Positions 17,400-22,482 are shown, counted from the first letter of the stretch. The stretch is DNA of 64,000 bases from Armatimonadota bacterium (GCA_043754515.1 JAYUUO010000150.1:1-64000), one strand, 5' to 3'. The notes: generated by a model not told the origin, from the sequence alone. Program-made: numbers and translations.

Positions 17400-18347
17400 A
17401 TGAAGGCGCGTCGCCGTGCCAGAAACCCACCCGTGTCCCCATCACTTACCCTAGAGCCGCCCGACACTGATAGACTACTCGCGCTGACGCGCGGGTGGTC
17501 CGTCGCCGGGGTGCGCGACGCCCTGCGTTCCGGCGACCCAGCCGCCATCGAGCGCGAGACCGCGCCGCTATGGAAAGGCACCATCGGGCATCTGACACGG
17601 TTCGCCGACGCCCTCATCCGCAGGGGGGCGGCGCGCGGAATAGGCATGGCGAAGGAGGACGAGGACATCGCCATTGAGGCACTGGACAAAGTGTTCGGGC
17701 TACTAGTTAGCGAGAATGGGGACCGGGTGCGCGACGAGTTACACCTGTTACGCGTCCTTTTCCGCGCGGCGCGGTGCGCCTTCGTGGACTCCATGCGCCT
17801 CGCGGACAACCGCCTCAGTAGCCCCCGCGAAAGCGTTCCCGCCTCCACGGCGGGGCGCGACGCGGGGACTACCGCCGACATGGTGCTCTTCGGCTCGGGT
17901 AAATCAGCCTTCGCCGTTCTTCATCTGCTCTTCACCGATGGCGAGCGGTTCGGACGTCTCCTGCGTAAGAGCCGGTCGGGGGTGCGTCACTCCCGCCAAT
18001 ACCAGGCATTGACTCTGTACGAACTGGGTGAGAGATTGCGGGATGACCTCCAAGACGGGAGCGCGGCGGGGCGGTCGGCGGCCACGCGCTTCTGGCGTCG
18101 GGTGGCACGGAGCGAAATCGGGATAGCGGAAGTGACGTGGGGTACCGTGGAATCGGCCGCCTGTAGTAGCGTCGGCGATTCGCCGGACGCGGCGACGCAG
18201 TTGTACGAGACGATCCGCGTCGCGGTCCTAGATACCACGGGCGCGGACGTGCAGAACCGGAATAAGCGGTATGTGATGCGCCACGAAATGACCCGGTTTC
18301 TCACGAAGTGCCGGTTCGATCTGGAAAAGGCAGGGAGTCTGCAATGA
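17400..18347 (+). CDS. Divergent ECF-type sigma-factor-like protein
   Basis: HLTRFA..EDEDIAIEALDKV..LFRAARCAFVDSMR follows the sigma2 pattern (DAEDLxQExF..LxxIARNxxxDxxR); VARSEIGIAEVTWGTVES resembles a sigma4 HTH. Confidence 0.62.
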   Translation: MKARRRARNPPVSPSLTLEPPDTDRLLALTRGWSVAGVRDALRSGDPAAIERETAPLWKGTIGHLTRFADALIRRGAARGIGMAKEDEDIAIEALDKVFGLLVSENGDRVRDELHLLRVLFRAARCAFVDSMRLADNRLSSPRESVPASTAGRDAGTTADMVLFGSGKSAFAVLHLLFTDGERFGRLLRKSRSGVRHSRQYQALTLYELGERLRDDLQDGSAAGRSAATRFWRRVARSEIGIAEVTWGTVESAACSSVGDSPDAATQLYETIRVAVLDTTGADVQNRNKRYVMRHEMTRFLTKCRFDLEKAGSLQ

Positions 18348-19051
18348 AAAAACGAGTCGAAGGAGTTGCCCAGGGAATCGCGGTCGAAGACGCTGGGAAC
18401 GGCACCTACGATGACTTTTCCTCGCGGGATATTTTGAGCGTCGTGTCGGGGCTGGCGGATCGTCAGGCGGCGCGGCATCTACTGGCACGGGCCGTTTCGG
18501 ATCACGTTCTACGCGAGCGGATCGCTCTGTCATTACCCCCCGAGGACGAAGAAACGGAGATCGCGGACGCGGTCAGCGAGCCGTCCGCTGTGTCCGACCG
18601 GATGAGTACGCGGGTGCGTCTGATGACGAGTCGGTACGCCACGGCAAGGGCGGATGTTGCCGCCGCGAACTCGCTCCTCGCGCGCATCCTGACCGTGCTG
18701 GACGGGTTGCTGACGTTGCCTGTCTTCGCACCGGCTTTCGCCGCCCCCGATAGTTTCGGTGACTTCTCCCTGCGGACCCAGACCCTGACCACGGCGGAAG
18801 GGGTTCGGGTCGAGTTCCATCAGTTCCCGTCCGATTCGGGGCCGCAACCTACGCTCCGCGTCATCGTGGATGCCTCCGTATTGGGTGCGTCCCATCGGTC
18901 GGCGGTGGTGACGATCTCCGGGCAGGACGAACCGTCGTTCTTGCTGATCGTGGTGTTAAATCCGGGCGGGAGCGGGTTTACTGATGTGACGGATCTGCCG
19001 CCATCGAGGTCGGCTCGGTGGCTGTCGGGGGTGACTCTCTCGCCGGGGTGA
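18344..19051 (+). CDS. Putative anti-sigma / protease-substrate protein
   Basis: ATGA overlap with the sigma-like gene and AGGGAG SD. N-terminal SRDILSVVSGLADRQAARHLL resembles an anti-sigma helical domain lacking Zn cysteines; PAFAA linker; beta-rich C-terminus. Confidence 0.5.
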   Translation: MKKRVEGVAQGIAVEDAGNGTYDDFSSRDILSVVSGLADRQAARHLLARAVSDHVLRERIALSLPPEDEETEIADAVSEPSAVSDRMSTRVRLMTSRYATARADVAAANSLLARILTVLDGLLTLPVFAPAFAAPDSFGDFSLRTQTLTTAEGVRVEFHQFPSDSGPQPTLRVIVDASVLGASHRSAVVTISGQDEPSFLLIVVLNPGGSGFTDVTDLPPSRSARWLSGVTLSPG

Positions 19052-22000
19052 TGATGGATCCGCGCCCGTACCCCTCCGACGACGAAGCGAGGCTGGTCTA
19101 TGCCGCGCTGGAGCGGCTTCTGGACGCGGCACGCGACGCGGTAGGTTCCGCGTCGCGCAACCCGCTTCTCCTGCTAGCGCGGCACTGTCTGGAACACCCC
19201 GCTCTGCGACCGTTCCGCGACGATCCTCTCCGCACATTGGGCGGCCGCTTTCTCAGCCTCGACGCGCGGGTGGCGACGCTCCGAAACGTGCTCGCGGCTG
19301 GGGGGATGCCGGTCGCCACCGTCGGCTCGGTCGGAGCAACGCTTTACATGCCGTGGGATGAACGGGTCGTGGTCTGCCGCGTGCTGGTAGCCGTCCTTTC
19401 ATCACATCCGCTCGACCGCTGGGAACGCCCGGTGCCGGTTCAGCCGATGTCCCCCGATCTGGAAGCGTCAGCAAACCGCGCGTTCGACGCGGTGCTTCAC
19501 ACGCTTCTGTTCGTCAGCCCGGACGGGAATCCCCCGACACCCCGCGTGGTGTATTGGAGCGTGGACGGCGCGGAAGCGGGGGGGCTCGCGGCGACCTCCG
19601 GCGATTCGCTGGAATTACCCCTTGCCCTCGCCTTCCTTTCCGCGCTGACCGGAATCCCCGTACCTACCGTCGTGGGGGCGACCGGCGCGATCCGCGACCC
19701 GGATCGGGTCGCGCCGGTCGGGTTTGTCGCGGCGAAGCGAAACGCCTACTTCGCGGCGGTCGGGGTGACCGCGCGGTTCCTCACCTCGGAGGACGGGAGG
19801 AGCATCGCGGAGTTCGCCGCCGGGCTGGATGACACTTGGGCGGCGCGATTCGCGCGAACTAGTCCCGAAGCCCTGACAACGCTCGCGCCTGGCGAACACG
19901 GCACGTTCCTGTGGGCGGAGATCGGGAACGTGCCGGCGCTATGGGAGACCCACGCGGCGGAGCTACGGGAGTTATTGCCGCGCTTCGAGACGCTATTCGA
20001 GGCGGCCGTGCGCGGCGCGGGCGGGCAACGATTCGGGCGTCGCCCCGACACCGGCGAGGGAACCGGCGCGGTATTCCGTGACCCAGGAGACGCGGTACGG
20101 GCGGCGACGATGTTGTTGCTTTCGGTACGCGCCTCGCCGCGCGGCCCCGCGGCGGGGGAAGCATCGCCGCCGCGCGTCGGCATCGCTCGCGGCGCGGGCG
20201 AGCCGATAGGGGATACGTGGCGCGGCACCGGCCCCGCGCAAGCGCGGCGCGTCGCCGATGCCGCGTCCGCCGGGCAGATCCTGGCGACCGATTCCGTCCA
20301 CCGGGCGATGGCACCGCTGGACTGGGTCGCCTGGGGGGCGCACCGATTACGGGATTCGCCCGGCACGGTCACGCTGTGGCAGGTCGTCGCGCCGGGCCTA
20401 CCCCGCGTGGATGTTCCGCCGGAGTCGCTGGACACCCGGCCGCACGATCTGCCCGTTTATGCGTCCGAACTGATCGGGAGAAGCGCGGAAATGGCGGCGG
20501 TATCGGCGGCGATCATCGCAGAAAGGATCGTCACGCTCACCGGTACGGGCGGCGTCGGAAAGTCGCGGCTCGCGGCGGCGGCGGCGGCGGACGCCCTGCT
20601 GAATCCATGCCTCGGGGATCTTCTGACGGATGGCGCGTTCTATGTCCCGCTCGACGCTCGCGTGGGTGCCGACGCAGCGAATATTCTCGGTGCCATCCGC
20701 GCGGCGATCGGTATCGGGGAGGCGGGGCGACTCGCCGCGAAGAAATGTCTTCTGCTCTTGGACAACGCCGAGGGCGTGCTCGGCGTGCTCGCGCCGCTCG
20801 TCAACACGCTCCTGACCGCCGCTCCGGGCATCCGCTTCCTGATCACGTCGCGTATCCCGCTCCGTCTGCGCGGCGAGAAGCGAATAACGGTCGCGCCGCT
20901 TCGGGTCCCGAGGCGCGATTCCTCTCCGGAGGAATGGGAGGGCACGCCTTCGGTGCGACTGTTCCGCGAGCGTGCTCGTGCCGCTGTGGGGGACTCCGTC
21001 GCACCCGTCGGCGGCGATCGGGAGGCTTTGACGCGCCTGCTCTGGCGTCTGGACGGCATCCCTCTCGCAATAGAGCTGGCGGCGGCGCGCACACGCTACC
21101 TACCCGTCCCCGAGATAGAGGCGCGACTCTCGGGTTCGCTACGCCTACTGTCCACCCGCGAGGGGAATGTGCCGGAGCGGCACCGAACATTGCTCGGCAC
21201 CCTGCAATGGTCCTACGATCTGTTGGGTGATGCGGAGAAGACTCTGCTCCTGCGTGTGACTGCGTTCGCGGGCGGGTTCGACCCGCGAGCCGTGGAGGGC
21301 GTCAGCGGCGACGCGCCCGGCACGTTCGACTCGCTGACGTCGCTTGAGGAACAGTCACTCCTGTACTGCCCTCGCTCCGACAAAGGCGAACCGCCGCGCT
21401 TCCACCTGCTCCAGACGGTGTCGGACTTCGCCCTCGAGAAATTGAGTGAGATGCCCGGCGGCGTAGACGCGGCGGCGCAAGCCCACGCGCGCTATTTTTT
21501 CGATCTTGCCGCGCGTAACGGCGACGAACGGGTAACCCGCACGGACCGCGAGGCCGAAGCGTTCGACGCGCTGGATCGCGAGATGGGAAACTTACGCGCC
21601 GCCTGGCTCACCCTGCGCGAATTGGGCGACGCGGGGCGGATCGCGACCTTCGCCGCGAACTTATCTCCCTTCCTGCGCCGCCGGGGTCACGCCCGCGAGC
21701 GCGCCGATTGGCTCGAAGCAGCGCTCCGGGTCGCGCCGACGGGTGCGCTCCGGCAACGACTCCGGCTCGCGTGGGCACTCGCCGCGGCGGAAACGGGGCG
21801 GGCGGAGGATGCGGCGGAGGTCGCGCGGCTGTTCTCCGACGCGGCGATCCGAACCAGGAACGTCGGCGAACAGGCCGACGCGGAGCGGCTGTTCGCGACG
21901 CTCGCTGGTCGCGCCGGACATTTCGACGTCGCGGAAGGCCACTTCGACCGCTCCGAGGCGTTGTATCGGGAGGCGGGTGACCGGCGCGGACTCGCAACTG

Positions 22001-22482
22001 TGTACAACAACCGCGCGGTGAACGCGATCGGTACAGGCGATGACGCGCGGGCGAGGCACTGGTGCGAGTCGGCGTTGACCCTCTGCCGCGAAACAGGCGA
22101 CGAGCGCGGCGAAGCCTACGCGAGCAACAATCTGGGCTATTTGCTGAGCGAAAGCGGCGACCACGACGAGGCACTACCCCATTTCCGCCGCCAGATGCGC
22201 CACTGCCAGGCTCAGCGCGACACGCTGGGTTGCGCCGTTTCGCTGTTCAATATAGGCGACGCATGGCTAAACCAGGGCCGAGCCGATGGGCTACCACTTC
22301 TGGTCGCCGCCACGGAGCTGTTCGCCCGCCTCGGACACCCGAACGCATCTACCGCTCTTTCCCGTGCCGACGAGTGGCTGACTCGAACAGACACGGCGCA
22401 AGGTGCGTTACACACCTTGCGCCGCGCCGCGAGCCGCCGCACCCTCGCCGAGTTACGGGAAACCCCTACCGAATCGCACTGA
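19048..22482 (+). CDS. Fusion of Lon-type Ser-Lys protease, degenerate class III cyclase, STAND (NB-ARC) NTPase and TPRs
   Basis: SGDSLELPLALAFLSALTG..ATGAI..VAPVGFVAAK with Ser (19606) and Lys (19735) 43 residues apart; cyclase-like TFLWAEI..GGQRF..TGEG..AGQIL; GTGGVGKS, LLLLDNAE, LDGIPLAIELAAAR; TPRs; GTGA overlap with the previous stop. Confidence 0.85.
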   Translation: MMMDPRPYPSDDEARLVYAALERLLDAARDAVGSASRNPLLLLARHCLEHPALRPFRDDPLRTLGGRFLSLDARVATLRNVLAAGGMPVATVGSVGATLYMPWDERVVVCRVLVAVLSSHPLDRWERPVPVQPMSPDLEASANRAFDAVLHTLLFVSPDGNPPTPRVVYWSVDGAEAGGLAATSGDSLELPLALAFLSALTGIPVPTVVGATGAIRDPDRVAPVGFVAAKRNAYFAAVGVTARFLTSEDGRSIAEFAAGLDDTWAARFARTSPEALTTLAPGEHGTFLWAEIGNVPALWETHAAELRELLPRFETLFEAAVRGAGGQRFGRRPDTGEGTGAVFRDPGDAVRAATMLLLSVRASPRGPAAGEASPPRVGIARGAGEPIGDTWRGTGPAQARRVADAASAGQILATDSVHRAMAPLDWVAWGAHRLRDSPGTVTLWQVVAPGLPRVDVPPESLDTRPHDLPVYASELIGRSAEMAAVSAAIIAERIVTLTGTGGVGKSRLAAAAAADALLNPCLGDLLTDGAFYVPLDARVGADAANILGAIRAAIGIGEAGRLAAKKCLLLLDNAEGVLGVLAPLVNTLLTAAPGIRFLITSRIPLRLRGEKRITVAPLRVPRRDSSPEEWEGTPSVRLFRERARAAVGDSVAPVGGDREALTRLLWRLDGIPLAIELAAARTRYLPVPEIEARLSGSLRLLSTREGNVPERHRTLLGTLQWSYDLLGDAEKTLLLRVTAFAGGFDPRAVEGVSGDAPGTFDSLTSLEEQSLLYCPRSDKGEPPRFHLLQTVSDFALEKLSEMPGGVDAAAQAHARYFFDLAARNGDERVTRTDREAEAFDALDREMGNLRAAWLTLRELGDAGRIATFAANLSPFLRRRGHARERADWLEAALRVAPTGALRQRLRLAWALAAAETGRAEDAAEVARLFSDAAIRTRNVGEQADAERLFATLAGRAGHFDVAEGHFDRSEALYREAGDRRGLATVYNNRAVNAIGTGDDARARHWCESALTLCRETGDERGEAYASNNLGYLLSESGDHDEALPHFRRQMRHCQAQRDTLGCAVSLFNIGDAWLNQGRADGLPLLVAATELFARLGHPNASTALSRADEWLTRTDTAQGALHTLRRAASRRTLAELRETPTESH

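What the first reader, a model, noticed from the sequence alone, without database searches (positions are those of the whole stretch)
17400..22482. Candidate new system: ECF-like sigma, anti-sigma-like protein and an NLR-type (STAND-TPR) gated Lon protease
Seen: three genes coupled by ATGA (18344-18347) and GTGA (19048-19051) overlaps. Gene 1 has sigma2-like and sigma4-like motifs. Gene 2 has an anti-sigma-like helical N-terminus, an Ala-rich linker and a beta-rich C-terminus. Gene 3 fuses a Lon-type protease with intact Ser-Lys dyad, a cyclase-like domain, an NB-ARC NTPase and TPRs. Known: in type III CRISPR CalpL/CalpT/CalpS, a Lon protease cleaves an anti-sigma to release an ECF sigma, and Craspase Csx29/Csx30/CASP-sigma uses similar logic. 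STAND-TPR proteins (Avs, MalT, AfsR) oligomerise on ligand binding to activate an N-terminal effector. Inference: a CRISPR-independent cascade in which TPR sensing and STAND oligomerisation activate the protease, which cuts the anti-sigma and frees the sigma. No cas genes or arrays are in the window. I do not know of a description of this architecture but cannot search to confirm novelty.
Basis: partly seen in the sequence, partly recalled or inferred. Interest (0 to 1): 0.92.

Follow-up and report, generated by a model that had tools for sequence, protein, structure and literature searches.

The report
Sensor-gated Lon protease sigma switch
A three-gene operon kept together in one family of Armatimonadota encodes a divergent sigma factor, its predicted inhibitor and a large NLR-like sensor with a Lon-type protease at its front end; it probably turns an unknown signal into new transcription by cutting the inhibitor, a switch so far known only beside CRISPR systems.

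Summary
Three co-directional genes overlap by ATGA (18344-18347) and GTGA (19048-19051).

- **Gene 1** is a divergent ECF-like sigma. Its sigma-2 domain is supported by profile and fold; sigma-4 is unproven.
- **Gene 2** is a soluble protein of no known family. It has a helical N-half predicted to sit between the two domains of gene 1 (ipSAE 0.84, best control 0.01), an invariant Ala-rich linker (LPxLAPAxAA) and a beta-sandwich C-domain.
- **Gene 3** has four parts: a Lon S16 domain with an invariant Ser197/Lys240 dyad, a cyclase domain that has lost its catalytic residues, an AfsR-type STAND NTPase, and TPRs.

The triad is adjacent in 13 other Armatimonadaceae genomes. It was found nowhere else in the 287 other Armatimonadota genomes searched. 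It lies among housekeeping genes, not in a defence island, and the window holds no cas genes or arrays.

The best reading (about 0.55) is that ligand-driven STAND oligomerisation activates the protease, which cuts gene 2 and frees the sigma. Cleavage, ligand and regulon are all inferred.

It works like CalpL/CalpT/CalpS but is not a member: there is no SAVED domain, no MazF/DUF2080 and no CRISPR. Six literature searches found no description. Earlier notes of this scan record analogous Lon-NLR/sigma cassettes on other DNA.

The parts
17400..18347 (+). Gene 1: divergent ECF-like sigma factor (315 aa). The start may be GTG 17433, as in the closest orthologue.
   Evidence: ORF. 6 of 15 orthologues give weak Sigma70_r2 hits (best E 0.0026) and 2 of 15 give Sigma70_ECF. 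Profile A1 against PDB hits SigE at E 0.014. hhalign against 9 of this genome's own ECF sigmas gives prob 93.7%, E 1.9e-7.
17469..17822 (+). Gene 1 sigma-2-like domain (residues about 24-141)
   Evidence: AF2 model has pLDDT 84. In VIA-align against 48,161 chains, most of the 33 best rows (Z 6.0-8.8) are sigma factors by title: SigW 5wuq_A Z 8.8, rmsd 3.4, 92 aligned; BldN 6dxo_A Z 8.6, rmsd 2.4, 78 aligned; AlgU 8z6g_B Z 8.1, rmsd 2.7, 85 aligned.
17889..18344 (+). Gene 1 C-terminal helical domain (residues about 164-315); candidate divergent sigma-4 with an insertion. Unproven.
   Evidence: The model shows seven helices at high pLDDT. hhalign against own ECF sigmas is not significant (E 0.46). 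It is not among this genome's 40 PF08281 matches. The nearest named ESM Atlas clusters are Sigma70_r4/r4_2/GerE at 0.77-0.81, a lead only. Residues 164-239 contact gene 2 in the predicted complex.
18344..19051 (+). Gene 2: soluble anti-sigma-like protein (235 aa from ATG 18344), no known family
   Evidence: No Pfam family at E<=0.001 in 13 of 13 orthologues; the seven matches at E<=1 were each in one member only and unrelated. No PDB sequence match. No conserved hydrophobic segment: 8 of 13 orthologues have a Kyte-Doolittle 19-residue maximum below 1.6.
18422..18652 (+). Gene 2 helical N-half (residues 27-103): predicted sigma-binding domain
   Evidence: Interface residues 27-103 touch gene 1 residues 20-133 and 164-239. 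The conserved pattern is I.AVV.G.AD..T.RRVLAAAL.D..VR.RL, with no conserved His/Cys.
18716..18745 (+). Gene 2 invariant Ala-rich linker LPVFAPAFAA (residues 125-134; family consensus LPxLAPAxAA): candidate cleavage site and degron
   Evidence: L125, A129, A131 and A133 are invariant and P130 nearly so in 13 sequences. Coordinates. The motif lies outside the predicted sigma interface. CalpT is cut in LAAA, which exposes an LAA degron (passages of 10.1101/2024.05.08.593097).
18773..19042 (+). Gene 2 C-terminal beta-sandwich (residues about 144-233): candidate docking or sensor domain
   Evidence: pLDDT is 85-95. Best VIA rows are MATH/TRAF-like: USP7 2f1x_A Z 6.6, rmsd 4.0, 105 aligned; TRAF6 6myd_C Z 6.3. 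These are below the level at which fold identity is safe.
19018..22482 (+). Gene 3: Lon-(pseudo)cyclase-STAND-TPR protein (1154 aa from GTG 19018; residue numbers count from there)
   Evidence: ORF. The family profile against PDB recovers all four domains. 26 cluster representatives at E<1e-30 among 1.84 billion proteins; of the 25 family members scanned, 24 show STAND and/or TPR families (TPR in 22; P0036 gave none).
19405..19797 (+). Lon S16 protease core (residues about 130-260). Ser197 codon 19606-19608; Lys240 codon 19735-19737.
   Evidence: Profile A4 against PDB: Lon 7p6u E 4.1e-9, LonC-type TTC1975 4fwg E 1.1e-8, CalpL 7qda E 0.011. Lon_C matches 6 of 10 orthologues, best E 4.5e-6. Dyad invariant 11 of 11. 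The Ser-Lys spacing is 43, as in E. coli Lon S679/K722 (those numbers recalled).
19885..20427 (+). Degenerate class III cyclase-homology domain (residues about 290-470)
   Evidence: Ma1120 cyclase E 4.7e-5 for the window copy alone and 2e-23 for the family profile. Both metal Asp positions and the Asn are replaced in the gene 3 orthologues but kept in 3 Lon-less paralogues. The domain is missing in L019 and in P0016, P0030, P0032 and P0035.
20455..21714 (+). AfsR-type STAND NTPase (NOD plus arm, residues about 480-900). Walker A K515 codon 20560-20562; Walker B D582 codon 20761-20763.
   Evidence: AfsR 8k60_I E 1.8e-40 over chain residues 275-897. NB-ARC matches 18 of 25 family representatives at E<=0.01. 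G509, G512, G514, K515 and D582 are invariant.
21715..22347 (+). TPR sensor region (residues about 905-1110)
   Evidence: TPR_12 E 5.5e-17. This is the least conserved part: mean pairwise identity 0.23, against 0.47 for the NOD and 0.40 for Lon, in 9 orthologues.

Best explanation
The three genes form a self-contained, CRISPR-independent proteolytic switch for transcription. It is vertically inherited in Armatimonadaceae.

At rest, the helical N-half of gene 2 holds the ECF-like sigma (gene 1) between its two domains. This step is predicted, not shown. Gene 3 rests as an ADP-bound, autoinhibited AfsR/MalT-type STAND monomer.

An unknown ligand bound by the fast-diverging TPR region would trigger nucleotide exchange and oligomerisation. 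That would bring the N-terminal Lon-type Ser197/Lys240 domains together and activate them. This is inferred from how STANDs work and from CalpL, whose Lon domain cuts in trans within a filament.

The protease would then cut gene 2 in its invariant Ala-rich linker (residues 125-134). The beta-sandwich C-domain probably serves as the docking piece, as CalpT's C-fragment docks on CalpL. The new Ala-rich C-terminus would mark the N-fragment for housekeeping proteases, and the sigma would be freed to redirect RNA polymerase.

The catalytically dead cyclase domain is an optional spacer or dimerisation module. The signal and the regulon are unknown. The genomic context favours a lineage-specific regulatory or stress role over a mobile anti-phage system.
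For: Anatomy: all parts are supported.
- Sigma-2 by profile and fold.
- Lon core with an invariant dyad in 11 of 11 orthologues.
- AfsR-type NOD-TPR E 1.8e-40.

Linkage:
- The three genes are adjacent in the same order in 13 other genomes of the family: G001, G002, G005, G008, G009, G011, G012, G014, G015, G016, G018, G021, G023.
- Gaps are -17 to +73 nt, except one locus with an N run.
- No sigma-70-type promoter or terminator pattern lies inside the operon.
- Genes 2 and 3 are present or absent together. In the g5 genus, 5 of 5 genomes keep a gene 1-like protein. Gene 2 was found in 0 of 5. No N-domain of gene 3 was found in the 2 genomes searched with the profile. One such locus, read in full, has neither.

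Binding:
- Complex prediction of gene 1 with gene 2 scored 0.84. The best of 3 controls scored 0.01.
- That mark was reached by 116 of 157 solved complexes and 2 of 215 mismatched pairs. These counts hold only roughly because my own alignments were used.
- The runs agree in at least 85% of contacts, and the partner's pLDDT is at least 71.
- The interface uses gene 2 residues 27-103 and both domains of gene 1. It leaves the linker and the beta-sandwich free.

Analogy (abstract and passages of 10.1101/2024.05.08.593097):
- CalpL cuts CalpT in an Ala-rich LAAA site, exposing an LAA degron.
- CalpT's C-fragment docks on CalpL's N-domain.
- Activation is by oligomerisation.

Gene 2's most conserved stretch is an Ala-rich linker.
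Against: - No evidence of any kind shows that gene 3 touches or cuts gene 2.
- The sigma-4 domain is not demonstrated, so promoter recognition by gene 1 is unproven.
- Sigma/anti-sigma complexes are solved, so the high complex score may partly reflect likeness to them.
- The window copy's own Lon signal is weak (Pfam E 0.18); the case rests on the family profile.
- Gene 2 matches no anti-sigma family and lacks the zinc motif.
- A gene 1-like protein persists alone in one genus, so the sigma can exist without the other two.
- No target promoter was identified.
Confidence: 0.55

Rival explanations
1. Output, not input. The sigma/anti-sigma pair responds to some other cue, perhaps through gene 2's beta-sandwich, and simply drives expression of gene 3. 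Gene 3 would be an independent STAND-activated protease acting on other cellular or foreign proteins.
For: ECF operons often carry their own regulon members downstream (established knowledge). Nothing here shows a gene 2-gene 3 contact. Gene 2's C-domain resembles peptide-binding MATH/TRAF folds, though only weakly (Z 6.6).
Against: Genes 2 and 3 are gained or lost together while gene 1 can stand alone. The stop/start overlaps suggest stoichiometric co-production. The best-conserved stretch of gene 2 is an exposed Ala-rich linker like the CalpT cut site.
Confidence: 0.15
2. Partner switch without cleavage. Activated gene 3 binds gene 2 and pulls it off the sigma. The Lon-like domain would serve as a binding or self-processing module rather than cutting gene 2.
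For: Partner switching is an established way to control soluble anti-sigmas (PMC8999054, passages). No cleavage data exist.
Against: The Ser-Lys dyad and the surrounding GDSLGLPLALA...ATGA...K motif are invariant in 11 of 11 orthologues over about 30-50% overall identity. That argues for retained catalysis.
Confidence: 0.12
3. Anti-phage immune receptor. The module is an Avs/NLR-like defence system whose TPR domain recognises a phage protein and whose output is a defensive transcription programme.
For: STAND-TPR proteins with N-terminal effectors include phage sensors, and bacterial Apaf-1-like STANDs with N-terminal caspase-like proteases are described (PMC13581612, passages). The known protease/anti-sigma/sigma trios are CRISPR-linked. 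The TPR region diverges fastest.
Against: - Single copy, and confined to one family among those searched.
- Ancestral synteny with GATase, J-domain and PfkB genes, and housekeeping flanks such as HisRS, CCA-adding enzyme and 5'-3' exonuclease.
- The window is ordinary chromosome.
- PADLOC gave only a generic TPR hit.
- No match in the scan's notes by sequence.
Confidence: 0.2
4. Gene 1 is not a working sigma factor. It would be a sigma-2-fold protein with another role, for example an RNA polymerase-binding decoy or a scaffold, and the trio would do something other than redirect transcription.
For: Sigma-4 is not detectable by profile. The C-domain is about twice the size of a normal sigma-4. 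No Pfam sigma model reaches its cut-off.
Against: - The sigma-2 motifs that contact the polymerase and the -10 element are kept: EDLAxEAW and the invariant Asp in RFLDxLxR.
- The C-terminal HTH-like stretch lines up with sigma-4.2, though without statistical support.
- The nearest Atlas clusters are sigma-4/GerE HTH clusters.
- The predicted sandwich complex is the classic sigma/anti-sigma geometry.
Confidence: 0.08

Closest known systems
CalpL / CalpT / CalpS (type III CRISPR SAVED-Lon protease, anti-sigma, ECF-like sigma)
   Same: A three-gene unit. An ATPase-less Lon-type Ser-Lys protease is fused to a sensor that activates it by oligomerisation. A soluble middle protein binds an ECF-like sigma through its N-part and carries an Ala-rich linker before a small C-domain. 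The family profile reaches CalpL itself only weakly (7qda E 0.011).
   Different: The sensor is an AfsR-type STAND NTPase plus TPR (with a dead cyclase domain), not SAVED. There is no cA4 logic and no CRISPR-Cas nearby. Gene 2 is helical plus beta-sandwich and matches neither MazF nor DUF2080. The protease sits at the N-terminus.
Craspase: Cas7-11 / Csx29 (TPR-CHAT) / Csx30 / CASP-sigma (RpoE)
   Same: A sensor-activated protease cuts a sigma-binding protein to release a sigma factor (abstract listing of PMC10028731; passages).
   Different: That protease is a caspase-like CHAT domain activated by an RNA-guided complex. Here it is a Lon S16 domain on a STAND NTPase.
AfsR and the cyclase-STAND-TPR proteins expanded in this order
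   Same: The NOD-arm-TPR backbone matches AfsR at E 1.8e-40. Lon-less paralogues with Guanylate_cyc + STAND + TPR are abundant: 39 of 41 related genomes have matches, up to 27 per genome.
   Different: AfsR's effector is a SARP DNA-binding domain, and the paralogues' effector is an intact cyclase. Gene 3 adds a Lon protease head and has lost the cyclase catalytic residues.
RseA/sigma-E regulated proteolysis (DegS, RseP, then ClpXP)
   Same: Site-specific cleavage of an anti-sigma exposes an Ala-Ala-type C-degron (VAA) that hands the fragment to housekeeping proteases (as summarised in 10.1101/2024.05.08.593097).
   Different: RseA is a membrane protein cut by envelope and intramembrane proteases. 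Here every part is predicted to be cytoplasmic and the protease is dedicated.
LonC-type ATP-independent Lon proteases (TTC1975 peptidase)
   Same: The active-site motif GDS(A/L)GL and the core fold match at E 1.1e-8.
   Different: LonC carries a degenerate AAA-like module and forms constitutive rings. Gene 3 replaces that with a STAND switch.
Antiviral STANDs (Avs, bNACHT, bacterial Apaf-1-like proteins with caspase-like heads)
   Same: The architecture is N-terminal effector, then NOD, then repeat sensor, and protease heads do exist (PMC13581612, passages).
   Different: No Lon head and no sigma/anti-sigma output is mentioned in the passages seen. This locus is not in a defence context.

Membership tests
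CalpL-CalpT-CalpS system | Lon-type S16 protease domain with a Ser-Lys dyad and no AAA+ module | tested here: met
CalpL-CalpT-CalpS system | SAVED sensor domain that binds cA4 | tested here: not met
   No SAVED family in Pfam or NCBIfam scans. The C-terminal part is cyclase-like + AfsR-type NOD + TPR.
CalpL-CalpT-CalpS system | Substrate built of a MazF-like domain plus DUF2080 (as described in 10.1101/2024.05.08.593097) | tested here: not met
   0 of 13 gene 2 orthologues match either family at E<=1. The model is helical plus beta-sandwich.
CalpL-CalpT-CalpS system | The substrate binds an ECF-like sigma | tested here: met
   By prediction only: score 0.84, best of 3 controls 0.01; mark reached by 116 of 157 solved complexes and 2 of 215 mismatched pairs; runs agree in at least 85% of contacts; partner pLDDT at least 71.
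CalpL-CalpT-CalpS system | Association with a type III CRISPR-Cas locus | tested here: not met
   No Cas families in 55 window ORFs, no array, and housekeeping flanks in the related loci.
ECF (group 4) sigma factor | Sigma-2 domain | tested here: met
   hhalign prob 93.7%, E 1.9e-7. VIA Z 8.8, rmsd 3.4, 92 aligned to SigW. Weak Pfam hits in 6 of 15 orthologues.
ECF (group 4) sigma factor | Sigma-4 domain (HTH that reads the -35 element) | tested here: inconclusive
   hhalign E 0.46. Not among the 40 PF08281 matches in the genome. Atlas lead at 0.77-0.81. The C-domain was not folded or searched on its own.
Class I anti-sigma domain (ASD/ZAS) | Helical N-domain held between sigma-2 and sigma-4 | tested here: met
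   By prediction only: score 0.84, best of 3 controls 0.01 (mark reached by 116 of 157 solved complexes and 2 of 215 mismatched pairs; counts rough). Gene 2 residues 27-103 touch gene 1 residues 20-133 and 164-239.
Class I anti-sigma domain (ASD/ZAS) | HxxxCxxC zinc motif, or a match to an anti-sigma family model | tested here: not met
   No conserved His/Cys in alignment A2. No anti-sigma Pfam family in 13 of 13.
Lon protease family S16 (LonA/LonB) | AAA+ unfoldase module fused to the protease | tested here: not met
   The protease is N-terminal and is followed by cyclase-like and STAND domains.
STAND NTPase, AfsR/NB-ARC type | Walker A and B motifs, NOD-arm homology, C-terminal repeat sensor | tested here: met
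   GxGGxGK(S/T) and the LLxLD Asp (D582) are invariant. AfsR E 1.8e-40. NB-ARC in 18 of 25 representatives. TPR_12 E 5.5e-17.
Class III nucleotidyl cyclase | Cyclase-homology fold | tested here: met
   Ma1120 E 2e-23 with the family profile and E 4.7e-5 with the window copy.
Class III nucleotidyl cyclase | Two metal-binding Asp residues and the transition-state Asn | tested here: not met
   The first Asp is replaced in 3 of 4 gene 3 orthologues aligned. The second Asp is Glu in 4 of 4. The Asn is lost in 4 of 4. All three are kept in 3 of 3 paralogues and in Ma1120.
Anti-phage STAND (Avs-like) system | Match to a known defence model, or a defence-island context | tested here: not met
   PADLOC gave only a generic TPR model at E 1.4e-5. 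Flanks are housekeeping.

The most novel reading that the evidence does not exclude
This would be a bacterial NLR-like (STAND) receptor whose output is neither cell death nor DNA binding. Instead it would make one site-specific cut in a dedicated anti-sigma, so that sensing by a TPR domain is converted straight into a new transcription programme. On this reading the CalpL-type Lon/anti-sigma/sigma switch is a general signalling device that exists apart from CRISPR and has been recruited by different sensor types.
Probability: 0.5. Interest if true: 0.8.

Novelty: new variant of a known kind. Interest (0 to 1): 0.7.

Why it matters
Protease-released sigma factors with a dedicated cytoplasmic sensor-protease are so far documented only as accessories of type III CRISPR systems (CalpL, Craspase). 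A 2022 review of non-canonical ECF sigmas lists only three ways to control soluble anti-sigmas: conformational change, partner switching and a mechanosensing complex (PMC8999054, passages).

A STAND-gated Lon protease with its own anti-sigma and sigma would add a fourth, ligand-gated proteolytic route. It would give a new effector type for bacterial NLR-like proteins. It would also offer a compact three-gene sensor-to-transcription module for study and engineering.

Public records name these proteins only 'predicted ATPase', 'cyclase domain-containing protein' or 'hypothetical protein'.

Tried and rejected
- **Foldseek on whole models.** Neither the gene 1 nor the gene 2 model gave a match at E<=0.001. 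Only the representative-wide VIA search was informative.
- **Single-sequence searches.** Genes 1 and 2 gave nothing in Pfam, NCBIfam or PDB. The gene 2 profile against PDB also gave nothing.
- **Sigma-4.** hhalign of the C-half of gene 1 against this genome's own ECF sigmas was not significant.
- **PADLOC.** No defence model beyond a generic TPR.
- **Genome-contig scan.** It used one narrow pattern and returned only 6 loci, all Armatimonadota, so it says little about distant relatives.
- **Word-indexed searches.** Genes 1 and 2 and the N-domain of gene 3 found only close relatives.
- **Promoter upstream of gene 1.** A TGTCAGAAT-like box recurs in most loci. It overlaps coding sequence in some and is poorly kept in the window copy, so I do not claim a promoter or a regulon. 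The consensus promoter and terminator scan found none.
- **Gene 2 with the gene 3 N-terminus.** This could not be modelled: structure prediction (2 of 2) and complex prediction (1 of 1) were already spent.
- **Membrane anchor in gene 2.** Considered and rejected. The window copy has one borderline hydrophobic stretch, but it is not conserved.
- **Literature.** Six searches and term look-ups in PMC13581612 and PMC8195603 found no Lon-STAND/anti-sigma/sigma description. Supplements were not opened and might list such architectures.
- **Scan notes.** Nothing by place or by sequence.

Full report
**What is there**

The window carries three co-directional ORFs:
- 17400-18347 (315 aa)
- 18308-19051, with the likely start at ATG 18344 behind a GGGAG (235 aa)
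- 19018-22482 (1154 aa)

Read directly, the stop of gene 1 overlaps the start of gene 2 in ATGA at 18344-18347. The stop of gene 2 overlaps a GTG in GTGATGATG at 19048-19056. Gene 3 may therefore start at 19048, 19051 or 19054; the public protein cluster has 1143 aa, which fits 19051. A consensus scan found no sigma-70-type promoter and no terminator-like hairpin between 16800 and 22800, which fits a single transcript.

The record titles of related loci place the organism in Armatimonadota, family Armatimonadaceae.

**Gene 3**

On its own the window protein gives only TPR_12 (E 5.5e-17), a weak AAA_16 and a sub-threshold Lon_C (E 0.18), plus weak PDB hits to an archaeal Lon protease domain and to the cyclase Ma1120.

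With orthologues the picture is clear:
- A profile of the first about 285 residues (A4) hits Lon proteases at E 4.1e-9, the LonC-type TTC1975 peptidase at 1.1e-8 and CalpL at 0.011. Lon_C matches 6 of 10 members, best E 4.5e-6.
- The whole-protein profile (A3) hits AfsR at E 1.8e-40 over its NOD-arm-TPR part, Ma1120 at 2e-23 and Lon at 7e-10.
- Ser197 (codon 19606) and Lys240 (codon 19735) are invariant in 11 of 11 aligned orthologues, inside GDSLGLPLALAFLSALT...ATGA...VG.V..K. Their spacing of 43 equals that of E. coli Lon S679/K722 (recalled numbers).
- Walker A (K515, codon 20560) and Walker B (D582) are invariant.

The cyclase-homology domain is degenerate. Against Ma1120, and against three Lon-less paralogues that keep TFLFTDIEGST, GDAF and PLNRxAR, the gene 3 orthologues have the following changes:
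- Glu or Ala at the first metal Asp in 3 of 4
- Glu at the second metal Asp in 4 of 4
- no Asn in 4 of 4

The domain is also dispensable. One orthologue (L019) and four cluster representatives (P0016, P0030, P0032, P0035) go straight from Lon to the NTPase.

The TPR region is the least conserved part. Mean pairwise identity in 9 orthologues is 0.23, against 0.47 for the NOD and 0.40 for Lon; the truncated L017 and the N-containing L015 were left out.

**Gene 1**

The window copy matches no family. Across 15 orthologues, 6 give weak Sigma70_r2 hits (best E 0.0026) and 2 give Sigma70_ECF. The family profile hits mycobacterial SigE at E 0.014.

Profile-profile comparison with nine canonical ECF sigmas of the same genome gives probability 93.7% and E 1.9e-7 over region 2.

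An AlphaFold model built on the alignment (pLDDT 84) has two helical domains joined by a disordered linker at residues 136-162. A Foldseek-independent search of 48,161 chains returns sigma factors or holoenzyme entries in most of the 33 best rows for residues 24-141:
- SigW 5wuq_A: Z 8.8, rmsd 3.4, 92 aligned
- BldN 6dxo_A: Z 8.6, rmsd 2.4, 78 aligned
- AlgU 8z6g_B: Z 8.1, rmsd 2.7, 85 aligned

These Z values are modest for helical proteins. The consistency of the list and the sequence-profile result together make the sigma-2 assignment sound.

The C-terminal domain (residues about 164-315) is about twice the size of sigma-4:
- It is not significant against the ECF alignment (E 0.46).
- It is not among the genome's 40 Sigma70_r4_2 matches.
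- Its nearest named ESM Atlas clusters are sigma-4/GerE HTH clusters at 0.77-0.81, a lead only.

Sigma-4 therefore remains open.

**Gene 2**

No family matches at E<=0.001 in 13 of 13 orthologues (the few matches at E<=1 are scattered, one member each), and nothing in PDB by sequence. The alignment and model (pLDDT 74.6) show three parts:
- a helical N-half with a conserved pattern and no conserved His/Cys
- an invariant Ala-rich linker, LPVFAPAFAA at residues 125-134 (window 18716-18745; family consensus LPxLAPAxAA)
- a confident beta-sandwich at residues 144-233. Its best structural neighbours are MATH/TRAF-like domains at Z 6.0-6.6, too low to name the fold.

There is no conserved membrane segment.

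**Do genes 1 and 2 bind?**

Complex prediction with both alignments scored 0.84, 0.85 and 0.84 in three runs. The best of three controls scored 0.01.
- The mark was reached by 116 of 157 solved complexes and 2 of 215 mismatched pairs. These counts hold only roughly because my own alignments were used.
- The runs agree in at least 85% of contacts, and the partner's pLDDT is at least 71.
- Gene 2 residues 27-103 lie against both gene 1 residues 20-133 and residues 164-239. This is the classic sandwich of an anti-sigma domain between sigma-2 and sigma-4.
- The linker and the beta-sandwich stay free.

Sigma/anti-sigma complexes are solved, so the pass may partly reflect likeness. It supports binding but does not show it.

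**Conservation**

Among 40 relatives plus the window's own genome:
- Gene 1 matches 18 of 24 genomes of the same family and 0 of 16 of the sister family.
- Gene 2 matches 12 of 24 and 0 of 16.

The three genes are adjacent in the same order in 13 other genomes: G001, G002, G005, G008, G009, G011, G012, G014, G015, G016, G018, G021 and G023. In two of these gene 3 is cut by a contig end.

Junctions range from -17 to +73 nt, apart from one locus with an N run.

A profile search of 300 further Armatimonadota genomes gave the following:
- The whole N-domain occurs in 9 of 14 genomes of this family, counting the window's own.
- It occurs in none of the 287 others searched. Their matches cover only the Lon core in ORFs of about 800-870 aa, the size of housekeeping Lon.

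In 1.84 billion representative proteins the full N-domain occurs in 26 clusters at E<1e-30. Of the 25 family members scanned, 24 show STAND and/or TPR families (TPR in 22; one, P0036, gave none). NB-ARC matches 18 of the 25 at E<=0.01.

In one genus with small genomes, 5 of 5 genomes keep a gene 1-like protein. One such locus read in full has a long basic tail on that protein and neither gene 2 nor gene 3. It sits next to the same CCA-adding-enzyme gene that follows the triad elsewhere. Genes 2 and 3 therefore come and go together.

**Context**

Flanks are housekeeping and partly syntenic:
- A GATase, a J-domain-like protein and a PfkB kinase lie upstream in several genera.
- HisRS, the CCA-adding enzyme, a 5'-3' exonuclease or an SPFH protein lie downstream.

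The 64-kb window is ordinary chromosome: RtcB, IlvD, shikimate kinase, polyphosphate kinase, sugar ABC transport, GH43 and TonB genes. It has no Cas families and no arrays. PADLOC gave only a generic TPR hit.

This is the pattern of a vertically inherited regulatory module, not of a mobile defence island.

Lon-less cyclase-STAND-TPR paralogues are very abundant in the order: 39 of 41 genomes have matches, up to 27 per genome. Gene 3 looks like one of these that acquired a protease head and let its cyclase decay.

**How it most likely works**

What is shown or predicted:
- the domain anatomy
- the intact dyad
- the strict linkage of the three genes
- the predicted gene 1-gene 2 sandwich

What is inferred:
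- The STAND module oligomerises on ligand binding and thereby activates the Lon heads.
- These cut gene 2 in the exposed Ala-rich linker, with the beta-sandwich docking on the protease's N-terminal region.
- The Ala-rich new C-terminus is a degron, and the sigma is released.

Each inferred step has a precedent in CalpL/CalpT/CalpS (abstract and passages of 10.1101/2024.05.08.593097):
- filament-dependent cleavage in trans
- a cut in LAAA that exposes LAA
- docking of CalpT's C-fragment on CalpL's N-domain
- release of CalpS only after further degradation

I put this reading at about 0.55. The main rivals are:
- Gene 3 is an output of the sigma rather than its input (0.15).
- Control is by binding without cleavage (0.12).
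- Gene 1 is not a working sigma (0.08).

Whether the biological role is anti-phage is a separate question. Context argues against it, and I put it at about 0.2.

**Comparison and novelty**

It works like CalpL/T/S but fails that family's defining features:
- no SAVED domain
- no MazF/DUF2080 substrate
- no CRISPR

It is also not a LonA/B (no AAA+ module), not a ZAS anti-sigma (no zinc motif) and not an active cyclase. Its STAND module is a genuine AfsR-type NOD-TPR.

Six full-text searches and term look-ups in a 2026 survey of prokaryotic STANDs (PMC13581612, passages only) and in the 2021 Death/TRADD-N analysis (PMC8195603; 'Lon' occurs 0 times) found no description of a Lon-headed STAND with a sigma/anti-sigma pair. 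Supplements were not read.

Earlier notes of this scan describe analogous Lon-NLR or Lon-TPR cassettes with sigma and partner genes in other phyla. None is similar in sequence to this one. They are unchecked AI notes. I did not test them, and they suggest only that the theme recurs.

I therefore rate this a new variant of a known kind. It is well supported as anatomy and untested as mechanism.

Noticed in passing
window:8150-11146 (+): A 998-aa AfsR-like regulator (BTAD plus MalT-like TPR region) lies 6 kb upstream of the triad. It is a second STAND-type protein in the window, with a DNA-binding head instead of a protease.
   Followed up: no
G000 and relatives, e.g. L043:844-3843(-), L044:1447-4140(-), L045:1512-4418(-): Cyclase-STAND-TPR proteins with intact cyclase motifs are massively expanded in this order. 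39 of 41 genomes have matches, up to 27 per genome, and 150 matches are listed with 349 more unlisted. Their function is unknown.
   Followed up: partly
upstream of gene 1: window 17420-17440; L011, L012, L014, L016-L022: A TGTCAGAAT-like box, often followed 17-18 nt later by CGTT, recurs just upstream of or across the start of gene 1 in most loci. It is poorly kept in the window copy (TGCCAGAAA). It could be an autoregulated ECF-type promoter, or it could be coding conservation.
   Followed up: partly
L024:1804-2895 (+), L023:2231-3301 (+): In one genus with small genomes, a gene 1-like protein stands alone. It has a long basic Pro/Gln/Arg-rich C-terminal tail and lacks genes 2 and 3.
   Followed up: partly
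L014:398-2630, L016:502-2698, L015:1518-2180, L022:1197-1841: A conserved upstream block of a class-II glutamine amidotransferase-like gene, a small protein with a weak J-domain match (40-78% identical between genera) and a PfkB kinase precedes the triad in several genera. It is replaced in the window by an SLT transglycosylase and a 136-aa hydrophobic ORF.
   Followed up: partly
window:26618-28795 (+): A 725-aa protein whose first about 310 residues are an ADP-ribosylglycohydrolase (E 2e-50). The remaining about 400 residues match nothing.
   Followed up: no
window:94-1785 (+) and window:2310-3245 (+): An RtcB RNA ligase with an N-terminal extension of about 160 aa lies beside an HNH_2/DUF3427 protein. 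These are the only defence-flavoured genes seen in the window, 14 kb from the triad.
   Followed up: no
public records of P0006, P0013: Close homologues carry conflicting source labels: one source names Fibrella or Akkermansiaceae, another Armatimonadota. They are annotated only as hypothetical protein, cyclase domain-containing protein or predicted ATPase, and the Lon domain is not recognised.
   Followed up: no
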